In this document: positions 1-6,610 of the stretch, one piece after another
How the letters are laid out: the number at the start of each line of letters is the position of its first letter
Numbering within the stretch: the stretch's first letter is position 1
Virus record (IMG/VR): IMGVR_UViG_2706794671_000007
Length of the DNA: 6,610 nt
DNA from: a virus
Lineage: Duplodnaviria; Heunggongvirae; Uroviricota; Caudoviricetes
Direction: 5' to 3' (one strand)
Notes under the pieces: generated by a model
Seen by the model: the letters and a program-made list of their open reading frames with translations, nothing else
Databases searched by the model: none
What the model was told of the DNA's origin: nothing
Program-made: the position numbers and the translations under genes

Positions 1-102
1 GTCTGGGGAATATCTCCCCGGCAGCCTTCAGGGAAAAATATCATCAGATGGCTGCTTAAAAAAAGAACAAATGGTAGTGTCCGCTATTGCCAGTACACCT
101 CA
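1..102. repeat. Left arm of a perfect 102-bp terminal inverted repeat (reverse complement of 6509..6610)
   Basis: Base-by-base comparison: the reverse complement of 6509..6610 equals 1..102 exactly; identity breaks at position 103 versus 6508. The repeat carries open coding frame (frame 2, no stops). Confidence 0.9.
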
Positions 103-935: not shown

Positions 936-981
936 TGCAGCGGGTGCTTGAGGCTATCTGTCTCAGGCATGAACACCAAAA

Positions 982-1063
982 GGCAGATAGAGAAAAGCCC
1001 CAGTTAACATTACGCGTCCGGCAAGACGCTTAACATTAATCTGAGGCTCAATCTATGAACGGC
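982..1063 (-). ncRNA. Candidate Sok-like antisense RNA of the hok locus (approximate ends); candidate promoter on the minus strand -35 TTGCCT (1098..1093), 17-nt spacer, -10 TAACCT (1075..1070)
   Basis: In hok/sok loci the antisense RNA is transcribed opposite to the mok leader and start region. A minus-strand promoter-like pair of hexamers lies inside the mok-like N-terminal extension and points toward the mok SD/start at 1043..1057. The 3' end is not defined by a clean terminator, so coordinates are approximate. Confidence 0.3.
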
Positions 1064-1111
1064 AAATCTAGGTTAGCCTCTTACGTGCCGAAAGGCAAGG
1101 AGAAGCAGGCT

Positions 1112-1267
1112 ATGAAGCAGCAAAAGGCGATGTTAATCGCCCTGATCGTCATCTGTTTAACCGTCATAGTGACGGCACTGGTAACGAGGAAAGACCTCTG
1201 CGAGGTACGAATTCGAACCGGCCAGACGGAGGTCGCTGTCTTCACAGCTTACGAACCTGAGGAGTAA
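1112..1267 (+). CDS. hokD: Hok-family type I toxin, 51 aa, matching HokD/RelF (MKQQKAMLIALIVICLTVIVTALVTRKDLCEVRIRTGQTEVAVFTAYEPEE); an in-frame upstream ATG at 1055 gives a 70-aa mok-like overlapping frame
   Basis: Internal Met of ORF-track ORF 1055..1267. AAGGAG at 1097..1102 sits 9 nt upstream of ATG 1112. The peptide has the Hok/Gef architecture (N-terminal transmembrane helix, conserved C-terminal region) and matches HokD of the K-12 Qin prophage as I recall it. The ATG at 1055 has its own SD (GAGG 1043..1046). Confidence 0.85.
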   Translation: MKQQKAMLIALIVICLTVIVTALVTRKDLCEVRIRTGQTEVAVFTAYEPEE

Positions 1268-1335
1268 GAGACCAGGCGGGGGAGAAATCCCTCGCCACCT
1301 CTGATGGGTCAGGCATCCTCAATGCACCCACACTT

Positions 1336-1362
1336 AACCCGCTTCGGCGGGTTTTTGTTTTT
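1336..1362 (+). terminator. Rho-independent terminator ending the hok mRNA
   Basis: Stem CCCGC (1338..1342), loop TTCG, stem GCGGG (1347..1351), followed by TTTTTGTTTTT. Confidence 0.75.
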
Positions 1363-2903: not shown

Positions 2904-3284
2904 ATGACCGAGCGCATAGAATTTGTTTTACCTTACCCGCCGACGGTGAACACTTACTGGCGTCGTCGTGGCAGCACATATTTTGTATCAAAAGCCGGGG
3001 AGCGTTATCGCCGGGCAGTGGCGCTTATTGTTCGCCAGCAGCGGCTGAAATTAAGCCTGTCCGGAAGGTTGGCAATAAAAATTATTGCAGAACCACCGGA
3101 TAAGCGCCGCCGTGACCTGGACAATATTCTGAAAGCGCCGCTGGATGCGCTGACGCATGCGGGGTTGCTAATGGACGATGAGCAGTTTGATGAAATCAAT
3201 ATCGTTCGTGCTCAGCCAGTATCTGGTGGACGTCTGGGGGTGAAGATTTATCCCATAATGCTTGAAGGGCAGGTCAAAAAATGA
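2904..3284 (+). CDS. rusA: RusA-family Holliday junction resolvase (crossover junction endodeoxyribonuclease), 126 aa
   Basis: The translation carries the RusA catalytic-region signature PDKRRRDLDNILKAPLDALTHAGLLMDDEQF (acidic residues in RRRDLDN and MDDEQ), closely paralleling E. coli RusA. Size and nin-region position immediately upstream of Q fit. Confidence 0.9.
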   Translation: MTERIEFVLPYPPTVNTYWRRRGSTYFVSKAGERYRRAVALIVRQQRLKLSLSGRLAIKIIAEPPDKRRRDLDNILKAPLDALTHAGLLMDDEQFDEINIVRAQPVSGGRLGVKIYPIMLEGQVKK

Positions 3285-4102
3285 AACTGGAAGATTTACC
3301 GAAATACTACTCCCCAAAATCCCCCGGCCTGACTGATGCATCGGCCTCAACGTCGAAAGATGCGCTGAGTATCACTGATGTGATGGCCGCGCAGGGCATG
3401 ACACAGAATCGGGCTGAGATGGGGGTTTCTGCGTTCCTTGGGAAAATGGGCATTAGTATGAATGACAGAGAGCGGGCAACAGAATTGCTGACAGAATATG
3501 CACTCAGTCGGTGTGATCGCGTGGCGGCGTTAAGAAAACTCCCGGCAGAAATAAAACCGGCAGTGATGCGTATTATGGCTTCGTATGCGTTTGAAGATTA
3601 TGCCCGTAGCGCGGCGAGCAAAAAACAGTGCCCCTGCTGTCACGGAAAAAAATTTATTGAAAGCGAGGTTTTTACAAACAAGATCCAGTATCCGGATGGT
3701 AAGCCGCCGGTATGGGCAAAGTGTACGAAAGGTGTGTATCCGTCTTACTGGGAAGAATGGAAAAAAGTCAGGGAGGTGGTAAAAGTTGCCTGTCCGGAGT
3801 GTGGCGGAAAGGGTGAGGTTTCCACCGCCTGTAAGGATTGCCGTGGGCGTGGTGTCGCCATTCATCGTGAAGAGTCGGTAAAACGTGGTATGCCTGTTAT
3901 CAGAGACTGCCAGCGTTGTGGTGGTCGTGGCTATGAAAGACTACCATCAACGGAGGCATTTAATGCTATATGCGAGGTGACAAACCAGATAACACGCGCG
4001 TCATGGGAAAAAACAGTTAAGAAATTTTATGATGCGCTGGTGACCCGGTTTGATATTGAAGAAGCATGGGCTGAGCGGCAGTTAAAAAAGGTAACTAGGT
4101 AA
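3281..4102 (+). CDS. Late-gene antitermination protein Q, 273 aa, Cys-rich zinc-binding type
   Basis: ATG overlaps the rusA stop (ATGA 3281..3284). Multiple CxxC pairs (CPCC, CPEC, CKDC, CQRC). The position directly upstream of a PR'-like promoter plus short-leader terminator is the canonical Q / qut / tR' arrangement. Confidence 0.75.
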   Translation: MKLEDLPKYYSPKSPGLTDASASTSKDALSITDVMAAQGMTQNRAEMGVSAFLGKMGISMNDRERATELLTEYALSRCDRVAALRKLPAEIKPAVMRIMASYAFEDYARSAASKKQCPCCHGKKFIESEVFTNKIQYPDGKPPVWAKCTKGVYPSYWEEWKKVREVVKVACPECGGKGEVSTACKDCRGRGVAIHREESVKRGMPVIRDCQRCGGRGYERLPSTEAFNAICEVTNQITRASWEKTVKKFYDALVTRFDIEEAWAERQLKKVTR

Positions 4103-4182: not shown

Positions 4183-4208
4183 AACCCGCCGCCGAGCGGG
4201 TTTTTTAT
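4183..4208 (+). terminator. tR'-like rho-independent terminator downstream of the late promoter (target of Q antitermination)
   Basis: Stem CCCGC (4185..4189), loop CGCCGA, stem GCGGG (4196..4200), then TTTTTTAT. Lies about 60 nt downstream of the predicted PR' start. Confidence 0.6.
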
Positions 4209-4326
4209 GACTGAAATCGCGTCAGTACAGTAAACGCGCTGGTGGCGGTGAATACCTGTCTTTCAGCTTGCTGGCTTTTTCGACAAGAGTTATTGGTGTG
4301 TCACGTTAACCGGAAAAGGAAAAGAC

Positions 4327-4524
4327 ATGCTAAAACAGCAGGATATGACAGAAACCGCCAGAGTGGTGTTTAATGAATTAAGCGTTACCGAACCGGCGAC
4401 AGTCGGGGAGATAGCGCAGAATACTTACCTTTCACGCGAACGCTGCCAGTTAATACTGACCCAGCTGGTTATGGCGGGTCTGGCAGACTATCAGTTCGGT
4501 TGTTACAGACGCCTTCCGCAGTGA
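4327..4524 (+). CDS. Small putative winged-helix / HTH DNA-binding protein, 65 aa
   Basis: ORF-track ORF. SD AAGGA at 4316..4320 with 6-nt spacing. The segment TVGEIAQNTYLSRERCQLILTQLVMAGL looks like a helix-turn-helix recognition region (by eye). Followed by its own terminator. Confidence 0.55.
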   Translation: MLKQQDMTETARVVFNELSVTEPATVGEIAQNTYLSRERCQLILTQLVMAGLADYQFGCYRRLPQ

Positions 4525-4538
4525 AGGCTTTTTTATTT
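4511..4538 (+). terminator. Rho-independent terminator overlapping the stop codon of the 65-aa gene
   Basis: Stem GCCTTC (4511..4516), loop CGCAGT, stem GAAGGC (4523..4528), followed by TTTTTTATTT. Confidence 0.65.
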
Positions 4539-4674
4539 GTGGTAAATGGGCGGCTGGTGGGTGTTAGGGGCACCCACCAGCCATCTGCTCATGCGTTGGG
4601 TTCACAAGCAAACCTCAGGCCCACTGCTTTGCGCAAAAGCAGAATGAGCCTATCAGAGACAGGCTTAATGATCC

Positions 4675-5733
4675 ATGCTTAATACTGTAAAAATATCCAG
4701 TTGTGAGTTAATCAACGCCGACTGCCTGGAATTTATCCGGTCGTTACCCGAAAATTCTGTTGACCTGATAGTCACGGACCCGCCGTACTTTAAAGTGAAG
4801 CCTGAGGGCTGGGATAACCAGTGGAAGGGCGACGATGATTACCTGAAGTGGCTGGACCAGTGTCTGGCGCAGTTCTGGCGGGTGCTGAAACCTGCCGGAA
4901 GTCTTTACCTGTTCTGTGGTCATCGCCTGGCATCTGATATCGAAATCATGATGCGTGAACGCTTCAGTGTGCTGAACCATATTATCTGGGCGAAGCCGTC
5001 CGGACGCTGGAACGGATGCAACAAGGAAAGCCTGCGGGCGTATTTCCCCGCCACAGAGCGCATTCTGTTCGCGGAACATTATCAGGGGCCGTATCGTCCG
5101 AAAGATGCCGGGTATGCGGCGAAGGGCAGTGCACTGAAACAGCATGTGATGGCCCCGCTGATTTCTTACTTTCGTGATGCGCGAGCTGCCCTGGGGATAA
5201 CGGCAAAACAGATTGCAGATGCCACAGGAAAGAAAAACATGGTGTCGCACTGGTTCAGTGCCGGTCAGTGGCAGTTGCCGAATGAAAGCGATTATCTGAA
5301 ATTACAGGCGCTGTTTGCCCGGGTGGCAGAAGAGAAGCATCGGCGTGGTGAACTGGAAAAGCTCCACCACCAGCTGGTGGATACGTATACCTCACTGAAC
5401 CGGCAGTATGCGGAGCTGCTGAGTGAATATAAACATCTGCGGCGGTATTTTGGCGTGACGGTGCAGGTGCCGTATACCGATGTGTGGACGCATAAACCGG
5501 TGCAGTTCTATCCCGGGAAACATCCGTGCGAAAAACCGGCAGAAATGCTGCAGCAGATAATCAGCGCTAGCAGTCGTCCGGGTGACCTGATTGCAGATTT
5601 TTTCATGGGGTTGGGTTCGACAGTGAAAGCGGCACTGGCGCTCGGGCGTCGTGCAATTGGCGTTGAGCTGGAGACTGAACGTTTTGAGCAGACGGTTCGG
5701 GAAGTACAGGATTTAGTCAGCCAGAACGGATGA
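4675..5733 (+). CDS. Phage-encoded DNA N6-adenine methyltransferase, beta class (motif IV DPPY N-terminal, motif I FxGxG C-terminal), 352 aa; no cognate restriction enzyme visible (orphan)
   Basis: LIVTDPPYF at residues about 31..39 (catalytic motif IV typical of amino-methyltransferases) and DFFMGLGST near residue 300 (AdoMet-binding motif I). The permuted order IV then I defines the beta group. A central insert of about 250 aa is a plausible target-recognition domain. Confidence 0.85.
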   Translation: MLNTVKISSCELINADCLEFIRSLPENSVDLIVTDPPYFKVKPEGWDNQWKGDDDYLKWLDQCLAQFWRVLKPAGSLYLFCGHRLASDIEIMMRERFSVLNHIIWAKPSGRWNGCNKESLRAYFPATERILFAEHYQGPYRPKDAGYAAKGSALKQHVMAPLISYFRDARAALGITAKQIADATGKKNMVSHWFSAGQWQLPNESDYLKLQALFARVAEEKHRRGELEKLHHQLVDTYTSLNRQYAELLSEYKHLRRYFGVTVQVPYTDVWTHKPVQFYPGKHPCEKPAEMLQQIISASSRPGDLIADFFMGLGSTVKAALALGRRAIGVELETERFEQTVREVQDLVSQNG

Positions 5734-5773: not shown

Positions 5774-5849
5774 GGCCCTTTAGCTCAGTGGTGAGAGCGA
5801 GCGACTCATAATCGCCAGGTCGCTGGTTCAAATCCAGCAAGGGCCACCA
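5774..5849 (+). tRNA. tRNA with anticodon CAT, most likely tRNA-Ile2 (lysidine type, ileX/ileZ-like) rather than tRNA-Met; 76 nt including CCA
   Basis: Cloverleaf folded by hand: acceptor GGCCCTT / AAGGGCC, D-arm GCTC-AGTGGTGA-GAGC, anticodon arm AGCGA-CTCATAA-TCGCC (CAT at positions 34..36), T-arm GCTGG-TTCAAAT-CCAGC, discriminator A plus CCA. Closely resembles E. coli ileX as I recall it. Confidence 0.85.
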
Positions 5850-5890: not shown

Positions 5891-6176
5891 NNNNNNNNNN
5901 NNNNNNNNNNNNNNNNNNNNNNNNNNNNNNNNNNNNNNNNNNNNNNNNNNNNNNNNNNNNNNNNNNNNNNNNNNNNNNNNNNNNNNNNNNNNNNNNNNNN
6001 NNNNNNNNNNNNNNNNNNNNNNNNNNNNNNNNNNNNNNNNNNNNNNNNNNNNNNNNNNNNNNNNNNNNNNNNNNNNNNNNNNNNNNNNNNNNNNNNNNNN
6101 NNNNNNNNNNNNNNNNNNNNNNNNNNNNNNNNNNNNNNNNNNNNNNNNNNNNNNNNNNNNNNNNNNNNNNNNNNNN
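5891..6176. other. Scaffold gap: 286 consecutive N
   Basis: Unbroken run of n characters. Any ORF crossing it is an artefact and the true content and length are unknown. Confidence 0.99.
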
Positions 6177-6300
6177 GAATCCCCCTGTGCGGAGGGGCAA
6201 TCAGCGAGTAGGTATATGGGATAATCGCGGATTCAGGTGCTGGTACTGAATTCACCGGGAGGCACCCGGCATCATGCAATGGCACATAGCGCCACTCTCC

Positions 6301-6324
6301 AGCCCTCTCCGGAGGGGCTTTTCT
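6301..6324 (+). terminator. Candidate rho-independent terminator
   Basis: Stem CCCTC (6303..6307), loop TCCG, stem GAGGG (6312..6316), followed by GCTTTTCT. Confidence 0.45.
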
Positions 6325-6508
6325 GTGCCGGATACATCACAGTTTCTGGAACCTTAGGTACTACAGTATCAGTCAGGGTGCTATATTTTCAGATGTGATG
6401 AAAGCCTGTCAGCAGGCAGGGCGTATCGGAAATGACCCAGTAGAGAAAACGTTGACTCAGATACCGGTGCTGAGTTACCGGGAAACCGGCATCACATGAC
6501 CGCTATCC

Positions 6509-6610
6509 TGAGGTGTACTGGCAATAGCGGACACTACCATTTGTTCTTTTTTTAAGCAGCCATCTGATGATATTTTTCCCTGAAGGCTGCCGGGGAGATA
6601 TTCCCCAGAC
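6509..6610. repeat. Right arm of the perfect 102-bp terminal inverted repeat (reverse complement of 1..102)
   Basis: See feature 1..102. Confidence 0.9.

What the first reader, a model, noticed from the sequence alone, without database searches (positions are those of the whole stretch)
4327..5733. Late-operon module: small HTH-like protein, terminator, 12-bp perfect palindrome, orphan beta-class N6-adenine methyltransferase
Immediately downstream of Q/PR'/tR' the late transcript encodes a 65-aa HTH-like protein, then a terminator (4511..4538), then a GC-rich perfect inverted repeat GGCTGGTGGGTG-ttagggg-CACCCACCAGCC (4552..4582) not followed by a U-run, then two smaller hairpins (CTGCTTT/AAAGCAG and AGCCT/AGGCT), then the methyltransferase with a weak SD. 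This looks like a controller-protein / operator / methyltransferase arrangement without a restriction enzyme. The palindrome could be a dimeric operator or an RNA element gating methylase expression. Phage orphan adenine methylases are known for anti-restriction and for timing of replication or packaging, but their regulation is generally poorly defined. The specificity is not deducible from sequence.
Basis: partly seen in the sequence, partly recalled or inferred. Interest (0 to 1): 0.55.

Follow-up and report, generated by a model that had tools for sequence, protein, structure and literature searches.

The report
Structured RNA leader before phage methylase
The "palindrome" is one stem of a conserved, about 135-base folded RNA, not in Rfam, that sits directly in front of a prophage gene 93% identical to M.EcoGII, the known non-specific (and toxic when overexpressed) DNA adenine methylase, and probably limits its translation.

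Summary
Three points change the interpretation.

1. The methylase is not of unknown specificity. It is 93% identical to M.EcoGII, the characterised non-specific adenine methyltransferase.

2. The 12-bp palindrome is not an isolated operator. It is helix P2 of a five-helix RNA leader (window about 4539-4674). That leader is more conserved than the flanking genes across Enterobacteriaceae, Morganellaceae and Yersinia. It shows many compensatory base changes and G·U pairs that fit only the + strand. No Rfam family reaches its threshold. In 44 of 48 further phage-contig copies an M.EcoGII-family gene follows directly.

3. The 65-aa protein is confidently predicted as a winged helix. However, it is acidic, is not a C-protein or Com homologue, and lies within 450 nt upstream of only 32 of those 48 leaders.

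The likeliest role, which is inferred, is cis control of methylase translation. The P3 loop can pair with the start region, and an alternative helix is also possible. This would add to the Q-dependent read-through of two terminators.

Both palindrome arms contain the Chi sequence, but Chi is lost in several genera while the stem is kept.

The module itself is common and already annotated. The RNA motif appears to be undescribed.

The parts
4183..4209 (+). tR'-like intrinsic terminator downstream of Q. This is the start of the block shared among Stx2 phages that carry different Q genes.
   Evidence: Terminator scan. Phage matches begin at query position 84, which is window 4183.
4327..4524 (+). 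65-aa small protein, phrog_331, predicted winged helix, acidic, two invariant Cys (C40, C59). Function unknown.
   Evidence: ORF list. Only sub-threshold TrmB/MarR Pfam hits. AlphaFold2 pLDDT 89.8 with H-H-H plus a beta wing. Foldseek matches to MarR, IclR and SelB winged helices. phrog_331, unknown function. pI 5.1. Invariant columns in the alignment.
4511..4538 (+). Intrinsic-terminator-like hairpin plus U run, enclosing the small ORF's stop codon. An equivalent GC hairpin of variable sequence plus a U-rich tract precedes the leader in the related loci I inspected, except the Proteus/Providencia type.
   Evidence: Terminator scan. Alignments. Upstream sequences of 12 loci that lack the small ORF next to the leader.
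4539..4546 (+). Conserved single-stranded 5' flank of the leader. It reads GUGGUAAA here and UGUGAAA(A) in most relatives.
   Evidence: Near-invariant columns in A1, A3, A5 and A7.
4547..4623 (+). P1, a long-range helix UGGGC (4547-4551) : GCCCA (4619-4623) that encloses P2 and P3 in a three-way junction. The same 5' strand (AUGGGC, 4546-4551) can instead pair with GCUCAU (4587-4592).
   Evidence: RNAalifold. P1 is 100% and 99.5% paired, with one compensatory G-C to A-U change. The alternative helix is 94.7% paired with one-sided changes only.
4552..4582 (+). It contains Chi on the + strand (4553-4560) and on the - strand (4574-4581).
   Evidence: 96.8% and 96.0% of cells paired. 6 of 11 pairs show compensatory changes. 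G·U pairs fit the + strand only. Chi positions. Stem kept without Chi in Providencia, Proteus, Xenorhabdus and Yersinia.
4584..4612 (+). P3 hairpin, UCUGCUCAUG : CACAAGCAAA, with apical loop 4594-4602.
   Evidence: 4 and 5 of 10 pairs show compensatory changes, for example C-G / U-A / A-U at one position.
4599..4604 (+). GGUUCA at the 3' end of the P3 loop, candidate partner of the start region 4669-4674 (pseudoknot). It overlaps the two innermost P3 pairs.
   Evidence: 91% of cells paired across 37 leaders. The terminal pair is A-U 18, G-C 5, G·U 4. Xenorhabdus has a shifted GGAGAGU:ACUUUCC pairing. This region is the favoured partner in the thermodynamic ensemble of most of 27 leaders. It is weak or absent in several IMG/VR variants.
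4624..4642 (+). P4 hairpin, CUGCUUU : AAAGCAG, loop GCGCA.
   Evidence: 85-86.5% of cells paired, 2 pairs compensatory. Xenorhabdus flips G-C to C-G.
4645..4667 (+). P5 hairpin, UGAGCCU: AGGCUUA.
   Evidence: 78% and 72% of cells paired. 2 of 8 pairs compensatory in A5 and 7 of 8 in A7.
4669..4677 (+). Translation start region, UGAUCC followed by AUG, with no canonical Shine-Dalgarno sequence. (C)UGAUCYAUG is conserved in most genera.
   Evidence: Alignments. The region is less accessible than in shuffled-leader controls in 22 of 27 leaders.
4675..5733 (+). Orphan beta-class N6-adenine DNA methyltransferase of the M.EcoGII/M.EcoGI family.
   Evidence: PF01555 at E = 7.9e-42. 324/349 identical to M.EcoGII (sequence from the PMC11551740 supplement). 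PDB relatives are beta-class MTases.
5774..5849 (+). tRNA with anticodon CAT, annotated ileZ/tRNA-Ile in relatives. It is the first of the tRNA cluster that follows the methylase and precedes stx in Stx phages.
   Evidence: ARAGORN. Rfam tRNA at 72.5 bits. Annotation of relatives.

Best explanation
This is the M.EcoGII-type methylase module of a lambdoid prophage late operon. The gene order is Q, PR'/tR', a 65-aa winged-helix protein, a second intrinsic terminator, a structured RNA leader of about 135 nt, a non-specific adenine methyltransferase, and then tRNAs.

Shown:
- The palindrome is helix P2 of a conserved five-helix RNA: P1 closes a three-way junction with P2 and P3, and P4 and P5 follow.
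- The RNA is read on the + strand and is tightly linked to M.EcoGII-family genes across Enterobacterales.

Inferred:
- Transcription reaches the methylase only when Q-modified polymerase reads through tR' and the terminator at 4511-4538.
- The leader adds a translational layer of control. The P3 apical loop pairs with the start region (UGAUCC-AUG), and P1+P3 can trade places with an alternative AUGGGC:GCUCAU helix. Together these would keep production of an enzyme that harms the cell low or conditional.
- The trigger that opens the start region is unknown. Candidates are folding kinetics, the small protein, the methylase itself, or a ligand.
- Once made late in infection, the enzyme would methylate phage DNA at adenines in any context and protect it from restriction in the next host.
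For: Methylase identity:
- 93% identical to M.EcoGII.
- The M.EcoGII family is reported as prophage-borne, silent in lysogens and harmful when expressed (PMC5778455; PMC4659465).

Leader conservation:
- Mean column identity is 79% over about 15 genera, while the small protein falls to 53% identity and the methylase to 62%.

Structure, set A5 (37 leaders):
- 86.6% of cells paired, against 34-43% when partners are slid by 1-3 columns.
- 15 pairs with changes on both sides, against 5-7.
- Covariation score 0.136, against at most 0.076.
- 0 of 500 shuffles reach the observed values.

Structure, second set A7 (41 distinct IMG/VR leaders):
- 85.8% paired, against 33-42%.
- 20 pairs with changes on both sides, against 7-13.
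- Covariation score 0.203, against at most 0.084.

Strand:
- Frequent G·U pairs in P2 and P5 fit only the + strand. The model finds only + strand copies relative to the methylase.

Linkage:
- All 184 methylase loci with enough upstream sequence carry the leader.
- 44 of 48 leaders are followed directly by the methylase.

Start-region occlusion:
- The P3 loop: start-region helix is 91% paired.
- It is the favoured partner of positions -10 to +3 in most of 27 leaders. Accessibility is below shuffled-leader controls in 22 of the 27.
- The window's own minimum-free-energy fold pairs 4593-4603 with the start region, including the AUG.

Alternative helix:
- 94.7% paired.

Novelty of the RNA:
- No Rfam family reaches its gathering score.
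Against: - No expression or probing data exist. The regulatory role is inferred from structure and position only.
- The loop: start-region pairing is nearly invariant, so it has little covariation. It clashes with the two innermost P3 pairs. It is weak or absent in several diverged leaders (L224, L278, L231).
- The accessibility differences from controls are modest.
- Alignments A5 and A7 were fitted to my own model, which biases pair counts toward it. The plain MAFFT alignment gives weaker but same-direction support.
- Some Xenorhabdus methylases have a shorter, different leader with a normal Shine-Dalgarno sequence. One has no leader at all. The element is therefore not indispensable.
- M.EcoGII activity is assumed from 93% identity and was not measured.
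Confidence: 0.6

Rival explanations
1. Com/mom-like activation. The 65-aa winged-helix protein, translated from the same late transcript, binds the leader RNA (P2 hairpin plus the GUGAAAU flank). Binding opens the start region, so the methylase is made only when the late operon is strongly transcribed.
For: - A small gene sits directly upstream of a harmful adenine-modifying enzyme in a late operon, as in Mu com-mom and in FluMu, where a Com homologue precedes a non-specific adenine methylase (PMC6483171, PMC3299994).
- The small ORF and methylase are syntenic in 23 of 24 species loci and in Morganellaceae.
- The GUGAAA flank plus a GC hairpin is the only part shared by the long and short leader classes, and both classes follow the small ORF.
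- Some winged helices bind RNA hairpins. SelB is among the fold matches.
Against: - The small ORF was not found within 450 nt upstream of 16 of 48 leader-plus-methylase loci. It is displaced by an inserted gene in L213. It is absent in Yersinia.
- The protein is acidic (pI 4.6-5.6).
- Its wing sequence is not conserved.
- It has no Com zinc finger.
- Its helix 3 stays nearly constant while the P2 sequence changes.
Confidence: 0.15
2. The small protein is a controller (C-protein-like) DNA-binding regulator, and the 4552-4582 palindrome is its dimeric DNA operator controlling methylase transcription.
For: - The protein has a winged-helix fold.
- The repeat is a perfect inverted repeat.
- A symmetric operator would also evolve with complementary changes in both arms.
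- The small ORF and methylase are syntenic.
Against: - There is no HTH_3/Xre similarity.
- The site lies downstream of the putative regulator gene and downstream of a terminator.
- No credible sigma-70 promoter lies next to it (and my reading of the TGTGAAAT region).
- The arms differ through G·U-compatible transitions in many copies (U·G in 14-16 sequences), which breaks DNA symmetry.
- Four further helices, including a 70-nt-range pairing, covary around it.
- The protein is acidic.
- The palindrome and methylase occur without the ORF.
Confidence: 0.06
3. The leader is a ligand-sensing riboswitch-like element. The P1-P2-P3 junction would be the aptamer, and P4, P5 and the start region the expression platform. 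It would tie methylase translation to a metabolite such as SAM or SAH.
For: - Junction and flank nucleotides are nearly invariant while the stems covary.
- Two mutually exclusive pairings of the same strand are both kept.
- The element sits in the 5' UTR of a SAM-dependent enzyme.
Against: - No similarity to any Rfam riboswitch class.
- No ligand evidence.
- High sequence conservation may simply reflect recent spread among related phages.
- Distribution is narrow: every copy found came from Enterobacterales or from unassigned phage contigs.
Confidence: 0.1
4. The fold is an mRNA processing or stability element. It would be a protective 5' structure or an RNase site that uncouples the methylase (and downstream tRNA/stx) transcript from upstream RNA, with no effect on translation.
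For: - It lies immediately after a terminator and an A/U-rich single-stranded stretch.
- It has stable GC-rich stems.
- It sits upstream of a tRNA cluster that must be processed from the same transcript.
Against: - This does not explain the conserved complementarity between the P3 loop and the start region.
- It does not explain the tight linkage to the methylase specifically. Where the methylase is replaced, the leader downstream of P2 is lost.
Confidence: 0.12
5. The palindrome exists mainly as a back-to-back pair of Chi sites. It would stop RecBCD from either direction and act as a recombination hotspot and module boundary.
For: - Exact Chi in both arms. The window holds 10 Chi against 0.2 expected from shuffles.
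- Related Enterobacteriaceae loci carry 1-2 Chi per kb, with a 113:38 bias to the + strand.
- Homology breakpoints fall at the palindrome in L003, L004 and the Stx2c phages.
- A second double-Chi palindrome lies at 5367-5380.
Against: - The - strand Chi is already lost in Stx2a and Stx2c phage copies.
- Both Chi are lost in Providencia, Proteus, Xenorhabdus, Yersinia and many IMG/VR copies, while the stem is kept by compensatory changes.
- The invariance of the G-rich arm is explained by pairing. G to A breaks a pair, whereas C to U in the other arm gives G·U.
Confidence: 0.05

Closest known systems
M.EcoGII / M.EcoGI (E. coli O104:H4 C227-11 prophage non-specific adenine methyltransferases; Murray et al. 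2018, PMC5778455)
   Same: - 93% amino-acid identity.
- Beta-class motif order.
- Prophage location.
- The phage 1720a-02 homologue named in that paper is my hit H27/L007, which has the same small ORF, leader and methylase.
   Different: About 25 substitutions, some of which may be reading errors in the supplement text I used as reference. Activity of this allele is untested. The published work does not describe the upstream leader or the small ORF.
Phage Mu com-mom operon, and Com-homologue + non-specific adenine methylase operons of FluMu/Pnm1/Hia5 (PMC6483171, PMC3299994)
   Same: - A late operon in which a small protein gene directly precedes a DNA-adenine-modifying enzyme that harms the host and protects phage DNA from restriction.
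- Enzyme translation is governed by an RNA hairpin next to a structure that hides the start signals.
   Different: - Com is a CCCC zinc finger. The protein here is a winged helix with two Cys.
- The leader here is much larger (five helices).
- The enzymes are unrelated: Mom, or alpha-class methylases, against a beta-class methylase.
- The small protein is often absent next to the leader.
- RNA binding is untested.
Controller (C) proteins and C-boxes of type II restriction-modification systems
   Same: A small helix-turn-helix-type protein encoded next to a methylase, with an inverted repeat nearby.
   Different: - C-proteins are Xre-type HTH_3 proteins. Their operators lie upstream of the C gene, and they time a restriction enzyme.
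- None of these features holds here.
Start-site-sequestering 5' leaders (translational operators, riboswitch expression platforms, RNA thermometers)
   Same: A conserved structured 5' UTR whose loop can pair with the ribosome-binding region. Alternative helices share a strand.
   Different: No match to any curated family. The signal that switches it is unknown.
Chi (GCTGGTGG) recombination hotspot
   Same: Exact Chi octamers in both arms of P2 and in a second palindrome in the methylase gene. The whole region is Chi-rich.
   Different: Chi is not kept where the hairpin is kept. It is at most a secondary, lineage-specific use.

Membership tests
M.EcoGII-family beta-class N6-adenine DNA methyltransferase | N6_N4_Mtase domain with the catalytic DPPY motif N-terminal to the FxGxG SAM-binding motif | tested here: met
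   PF01555 at E = 7.9e-42. DPPY at residues 35-38 and FMGLG at residues 310-314 in the translation. PDB relatives are M.RsrI, CcrM and M.MboIIA.
M.EcoGII-family beta-class N6-adenine DNA methyltransferase | Close sequence identity to the characterised enzyme | tested here: met
   324/349 identical (93%) to the M.EcoGII sequence printed in the PMC11551740 supplement.
M.EcoGII-family beta-class N6-adenine DNA methyltransferase | Methylates adenine in any sequence context; silent in the lysogen | not testable with these tools
   Reported for M.EcoGII/M.EcoGI and for the ST131 homologue M.EcoMV (PMC5778455, PMC4659465). Not measurable here.
R-M controller (C) protein / C-box | Xre-type HTH_3 fold of about 80-100 aa | tested here: not met
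   No HTH_3 hit. Only sub-threshold TrmB/MarR/DprA winged-helix hits. The AlphaFold2 model is a winged helix, and its fold neighbours are MarR, IclR and SelB winged helices.
R-M controller (C) protein / C-box | Palindromic operator upstream of the C gene, and a linked restriction endonuclease | tested here: not met
   The palindrome lies downstream of the ORF and its terminator. No endonuclease is present in the window or in annotated relatives.
Mu Com translational activator | N-terminal CCCC zinc finger in a protein of about 62 aa | tested here: not met
   Only two invariant cysteines, C40 and C59. Winged-helix model. No Com family among the Pfam hits.
Mu Com translational activator | Binds an mRNA hairpin next to a translation-inhibiting structure of the downstream modification gene | not testable with these tools
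   A hairpin (P2) and a start-occluding pairing are predicted. Binding cannot be tested here. Co-occurrence is incomplete, 32 of 48.
Any Rfam 15 RNA family | Score at or above the family's gathering threshold | tested here: not met
   The best hit is P26 on the - strand at 24.2 bits against a threshold of 36, and it is not reproduced in L020.
Intrinsic terminator (for the 4552-4582 hairpin) | GC-rich stem followed by a U run | tested here: not met
   The hairpin is followed by AUCUGCUCAUG and is not called by the terminator scan.
Conserved structured cis-regulatory RNA | Base pairs kept through compensatory changes, above controls, on one strand | tested here: met
   paired cells 86-94% against 31-47% when slid; 15 and 20 pairs changed on both sides against 5-13; 0 of 500 shuffles reach the observed values. 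G·U pairs fit the + strand only.
Conserved structured cis-regulatory RNA | Demonstrated effect on expression of the downstream gene | not testable with these tools
   Only positional linkage and predicted start-site occlusion are available.
Chi hotspot | Exact 5'-GCTGGTGG-3', conserved where the element is conserved | tested here: inconclusive
   Exact Chi in both arms. It is kept in most Enterobacteriaceae and some Morganellaceae copies, but lost in Providencia, Proteus, Xenorhabdus, Yersinia and many IMG/VR copies.

The most novel reading that the evidence does not exclude
The leader is a new class of two-state regulatory RNA, either a riboswitch or a protein- or methylation-responsive switch. 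Its P1-P2-P3 junction would sense a signal and toggle between P1+P3 and the AUGGGC:GCUCAU helix to expose the methylase start site. If so, an undescribed sensor would control a non-specific DNA/RNA adenine methylase in about a third of E. coli genomes, and it would sit on the late transcript just upstream of stx in many Stx2 phages.
Probability: 0.13. Interest if true: 0.8.

Novelty: new variant of a known kind. Interest (0 to 1): 0.55.

Why it matters
M.EcoGII is a widely used research enzyme, and its family is among the commonest prophage genes in E. coli. Published work states that these genes are silent in lysogens and harmful when expressed, but does not explain how they are kept off.

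A conserved, covarying leader RNA placed between a dedicated terminator and the start codon gives a concrete, testable mechanism. In many Stx2 phages the same RNA lies on the late transcript that goes on to the tRNAs and stx, so it may also affect that transcript.

It is also a candidate new RNA family. Cultured phages that carry it (mEp460, SfV, phiP27, cdtI phage) are available for experiments.

Tried and rejected
- **Leader peptide (MGGWWVL from ATG 4546):** rejected. The stop position varies. The ORF is 33 codons here, 7 in many genera and 3 in L023, and the sequence differs in Providencia.
- **Own sigma-70 promoter at TGTGAAAT:** judged unlikely. The scan found none in the leader region. 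The best hexamer lacks the -11 A or the correct TG spacing, and the -35 position falls in a hairpin of variable sequence.
- **Alternative outer helix GGCCCAC:GUGAGCC:** weaker, at 78.6% paired.
- **Metagenome and first IMG/VR scans with the methylase profile:** returned only near-identical E. coli-type copies. These were useful only to show that the leader is always present.
- **Second protein search from the Xenorhabdus methylase:** did not reach beyond Enterobacterales.
- **Literature:** the paper on pR' regions of Stx phages does not mention the methylase or any hairpin. The Pas sRNA preprint places PasD/STnc100 elsewhere, near 6148-6330. I found no paper describing this leader.
- **One literature query failed on syntax**.
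Full report
**Observation.**
- The 65-aa ORF runs from 4327 to 4524.
- A terminator-like hairpin occupies 4511-4528 and is followed by a T run.
- The perfect 12-bp inverted repeat is 4552-4563 / 4571-4582, with a 7-nt loop and no U run after it.
- The two smaller hairpins are CTGCTTT/AAAGCAG at 4624-4642 and AGCCT/AGGCT at 4647-4665.
- The 352-aa methylase ORF is 4675-5733. It matches PF01555 at E = 7.9e-42, with DPPY N-terminal to FMGLG, which is the beta-class order.
- Upstream lie an antiterminator Q (PF03589, 3281-4102) and a tR'-like terminator (4183-4202).
- A tRNA follows at 5774-5849.

**How common the module is.**
- The stretch 4100-5900 matches 3392 of 5426 complete E. coli genomes and 287 phage records, mostly Stx2 phages. 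There it is annotated 'hypothetical protein, DNA methylase, tRNA-Ile, tRNA-Arg, tRNA-Arg' and is followed by stx or by lysis genes. The tRNA part of the query inflates those counts.
- The 141-nt leader alone is found in 1651 of the 5426 genomes by megablast.
- It is also found in cultured phages: phiP27, SfV, mEp460, cdtI phage, Stx2a/c/d phages, and Klebsiella, Morganella and Providencia phages.

**The methylase.**
- It is 324/349 (93%) identical to M.EcoGII. The reference sequence came from the supplement of PMC11551740 and contains a few machine-reading errors.
- Murray et al. (PMC5778455) showed that M.EcoGII methylates adenine in any context. They report that it belongs to a very large prophage family that includes a phage 1720a-02 homologue, that it is not expressed in the lysogen, and that it slows growth when expressed.
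- My hit H27/L007 is that phage, and it carries the same small ORF, leader and methylase.
- A 99%-identical M.EcoGI homologue in ST131 is also transcriptionally silent (PMC4659465).
The best prediction is context-free m6A.

**The palindrome is part of a larger RNA.**
- I fetched loci encoding relatives of the small protein from one genome per species. In 23 of 24, the methylase starts about 150 nt after the small ORF.
- The intergenic stretch is more conserved than either flanking gene.
- RNAalifold and inspection give five helices. In window coordinates:
  - P1: 4547-4551 with 4619-4623.
  - P2: the palindrome.
  - P3: 4584-4593 with 4603-4612.
  - P4: 4624-4630 with 4636-4642.
  - P5: 4645-4651 with 4661-4667.
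  - The start codon AUG is at 4675.
- On the plain MAFFT alignment, 93.7% of cells pair against 31-47% when the partners are slid. Seven pairs have changes on both sides, against 1-4.
- I added Morganellaceae and Yersinia loci found through protein searches and contig look-ups. These bring many compensatory changes:
  - Xenorhabdus P2 is GACCGAUGAGUG / CACACAUCGGUC.
  - Yersinia P2 is GGCAGAAGAGUG / CACUGCCUCUGCC.
  - Providencia P2 is GACUGUAAAGGUG / CACCCUUACAGUC.
  - Xenorhabdus P3 is UUUGCCUG / CAGGCAAA.
  - P4 flips G-C to C-G.
- A covariance model (R1) aligned 37 leaders. In that set 86.6% of cells pair against 34-43% when slid. Fifteen pairs change on both sides against 5-7. The covariation score is 0.136 against at most 0.076. 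No shuffle of 500 reaches the observed values.
- A second set came from an IMG/VR pattern scan filtered with R1, giving 41 distinct leaders. There 85.8% of cells pair against 33-42%. Twenty pairs change on both sides against 7-13. The covariation score is 0.203 against at most 0.084.
- Alignments fitted to a model lean toward that model. The slid controls and the MAFFT result argue that the signal is real.
- G·U pairs are frequent, for example U·G in 14-16 sequences in P2 and G·U in 25-32 sequences in P5. On the opposite strand they would be A·C mismatches. The RNA is therefore read in the sense of the methylase.
- No Rfam 15 family reaches its threshold.

**Linkage.**
- All 184 methylase loci with enough upstream sequence have the leader.
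- Of 48 IMG/VR leaders, 44 are followed directly by an M.EcoGII-family gene. The exceptions are contig ends or low-scoring remnants.
- L025 is a remnant in which the methylase has been deleted.
- In the related loci I inspected, a GC hairpin of variable sequence plus a U-rich tract immediately precedes the conserved UGUGAAAUGGGC. This holds whatever gene lies upstream. The Proteus/Providencia type is an exception, with no GC hairpin there.
- Four Xenorhabdus loci have a shorter leader class: GUGAAA, a covarying GC hairpin, the conserved stretch GCUUUCC...AGCGUCGA, and a normal Shine-Dalgarno sequence. One locus has no leader at all.

**Mechanism (inferred).**
- The start region has no canonical Shine-Dalgarno sequence. 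It reads (C)UGAUCYAUG in most genera.
- The 3' end of the P3 loop (RGNUCA; GGUUCA at 4599-4604 here) is complementary to the start region. That helix is 91% paired over 37 leaders, and its terminal pair varies A-U / G-C / G·U.
- Xenorhabdus, which has a different start region (ACUUUCC), has a complementary GGAGAGU in the P3 loop.
- In partition-function folds of 27 leaders, positions -10 to +3 pair preferentially with the P3 apical region in most. The start region is less accessible than with a shuffled leader in 22 of the 27, although the differences are modest.
- The window's own minimum-free-energy fold pairs 4593-4603 with the start region, including the AUG.
- An alternative helix, AUGGGC (4546-4551) with GCUCAU (4587-4592), excludes P1 and P3. 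It is 94.7% paired, and its variable positions change only in ways allowed by both partners. This is what a two-state switch would look like.
- I therefore propose layered control. Q-dependent read-through of tR' and of the 4511-4538 terminator gates transcription. The leader then gates or limits translation.
- The pseudoknot is weak in several diverged copies, and nothing here measures expression. I rate this part at roughly even odds.

**The small protein.**
- Pfam gives only sub-threshold winged-helix hits. PHROGs places it in phrog_331, of unknown function. NCBIfam gives nothing.
- AlphaFold2 with 28 homologues gives a confident winged helix: pLDDT 89.8, three helices and a beta wing.
- Foldseek neighbours are the winged helices of MarR/OhrR, IclR and O-methyltransferases, and the RNA-binding winged helix of SelB. 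All have E above 1e-3.
- It is not a C-protein and not a Com zinc finger.
- It is acidic, with pI 4.6-5.6. Its wing is not conserved. Helix 3 (RCQLILTQL) is nearly invariant while P2 changes.
- It was not found within 450 nt upstream of 16 of 48 leaders. In L213 an inserted gene separates it from the leader. It is absent in Yersinia.
- It also occurs in front of other genes in E. coli.
- A role as an RNA-binding activator, by analogy with Mu com-mom and with the FluMu Com homologue plus non-specific adenine methylase (PMC6483171, PMC3299994), remains possible. It is not favoured.

**Chi.**
- Both arms of P2 contain GCTGGTGG. The window has 10 Chi against 0.2 expected from shuffles. By my own estimate that is about seven times the E. 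coli genome average.
- Related Enterobacteriaceae loci carry 1-2 Chi per kb, with a 113:38 bias to the + strand.
- Homology breakpoints fall at the palindrome in some mosaics.
- Chi is lost in many lineages that keep the stem, so it is not the conserved function of the hairpin.

**Verdict.**
- The methylase is a known enzyme family and the module is ordinary.
- The leader RNA appears to be an undescribed conserved structured element with a plausible, testable role in keeping a harmful methylase under control.

Noticed in passing
window 1-102 and 6509-6610: The two ends of the window are a perfect 102-nt inverted repeat of each other. Homology to E. coli genomes stops at about 6509-6510. The last 102 nt therefore look like an assembly artefact (fold-back contig end) rather than biology.
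   Followed up: partly
window 5891-6176: A run of N masks the place where relatives carry two tRNA-Arg genes (argN, argO) after the tRNA-Ile.
   Followed up: partly
window 867, 2012, 2070, 4238, 4553, 5373 (+) and 2476, 2528, 4574, 5367 (-): Ten Chi octamers lie in 6.3 kb, against 0.2 expected from shuffles. Related Enterobacteriaceae loci carry 1-2 per kb with a roughly 3:1 bias to the strand of late transcription. Xenorhabdus has none. This suggests selection for RecBCD protection of the phage end nearest cos.
   Followed up: partly
window 5367-5380: A second perfect palindrome made of two overlapping Chi sites, CCACCAGCTGGTGG, lies inside the methylase gene and encodes HHQLV. The same codon choice gives Chi on the + strand in 13 of the 20 loci that keep this peptide motif. 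In 7 of those 13 (window, L006, L010, L014, L018, L020, L028) it also gives Chi on the - strand.
   Followed up: partly
window 4544-4582; L003 3256-3270; L004 3250-3290; L005 about 3000: Mosaic junctions coincide with P2. In L003, homology ends right after the Chi-containing arm. In L004, an AraC-family gene replaces the methylase just after P2. Stx2c phages share homology only from 4544 onward.
   Followed up: partly
window 942-1267: A hok/sok type I toxin-antitoxin locus. The Rfam sok match scores 112 bits (942-1117) and the Hok protein matches PF01848 (1055-1267).
   Followed up: no
window 6148-6330 and 6369-6557: An STnc100 sRNA match at 69.8 bits, above the family threshold, begins inside the N run. 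A weak second copy scores 21.8 bits. A 2026 preprint relates STnc100 to the prophage sRNAs PasD1/PasD2, which are found near PF03589 Q genes.
   Followed up: partly
window 1276-1357: A sub-threshold IsrK-like match (25.7 bits against a threshold of 50) covers the hairpins after hok. IsrK is a Gifsy-1 prophage RNA. The match may be chance.
   Followed up: no
L198, L199, L203, L204, about 1400-1500: Some Xenorhabdus prophages have a second, shorter leader class between the small ORF and the methylase. It has GUGAAA, a covarying GC hairpin, conserved GCUUUCC...AGCGUCGA, and then a normal Shine-Dalgarno sequence.
   Followed up: partly
window 3281-4102: The Q antiterminator is long (273 aa). It combines PF03589 with DnaJ-type CxxCxGxG zinc-finger repeats. 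Modules with quite different Q proteins share the same downstream block from tR' onward.
   Followed up: no
window 5774-5849: ARAGORN calls this tRNA Met (anticodon CAT). RefSeq and phage records annotate the same gene as tRNA-Ile (ileZ), which implies lysidine modification.
   Followed up: no
window 4603 region and 4669-4673; Morganellaceae loci: The start region carries a GATC (Dam site) directly before the ATG in most genera. Many copies have a second GATC in the P3 loop (GGATCAC, which is also the sequence of the 16S rRNA 3' tail just upstream of the anti-Shine-Dalgarno sequence, from my own knowledge).
   Followed up: no
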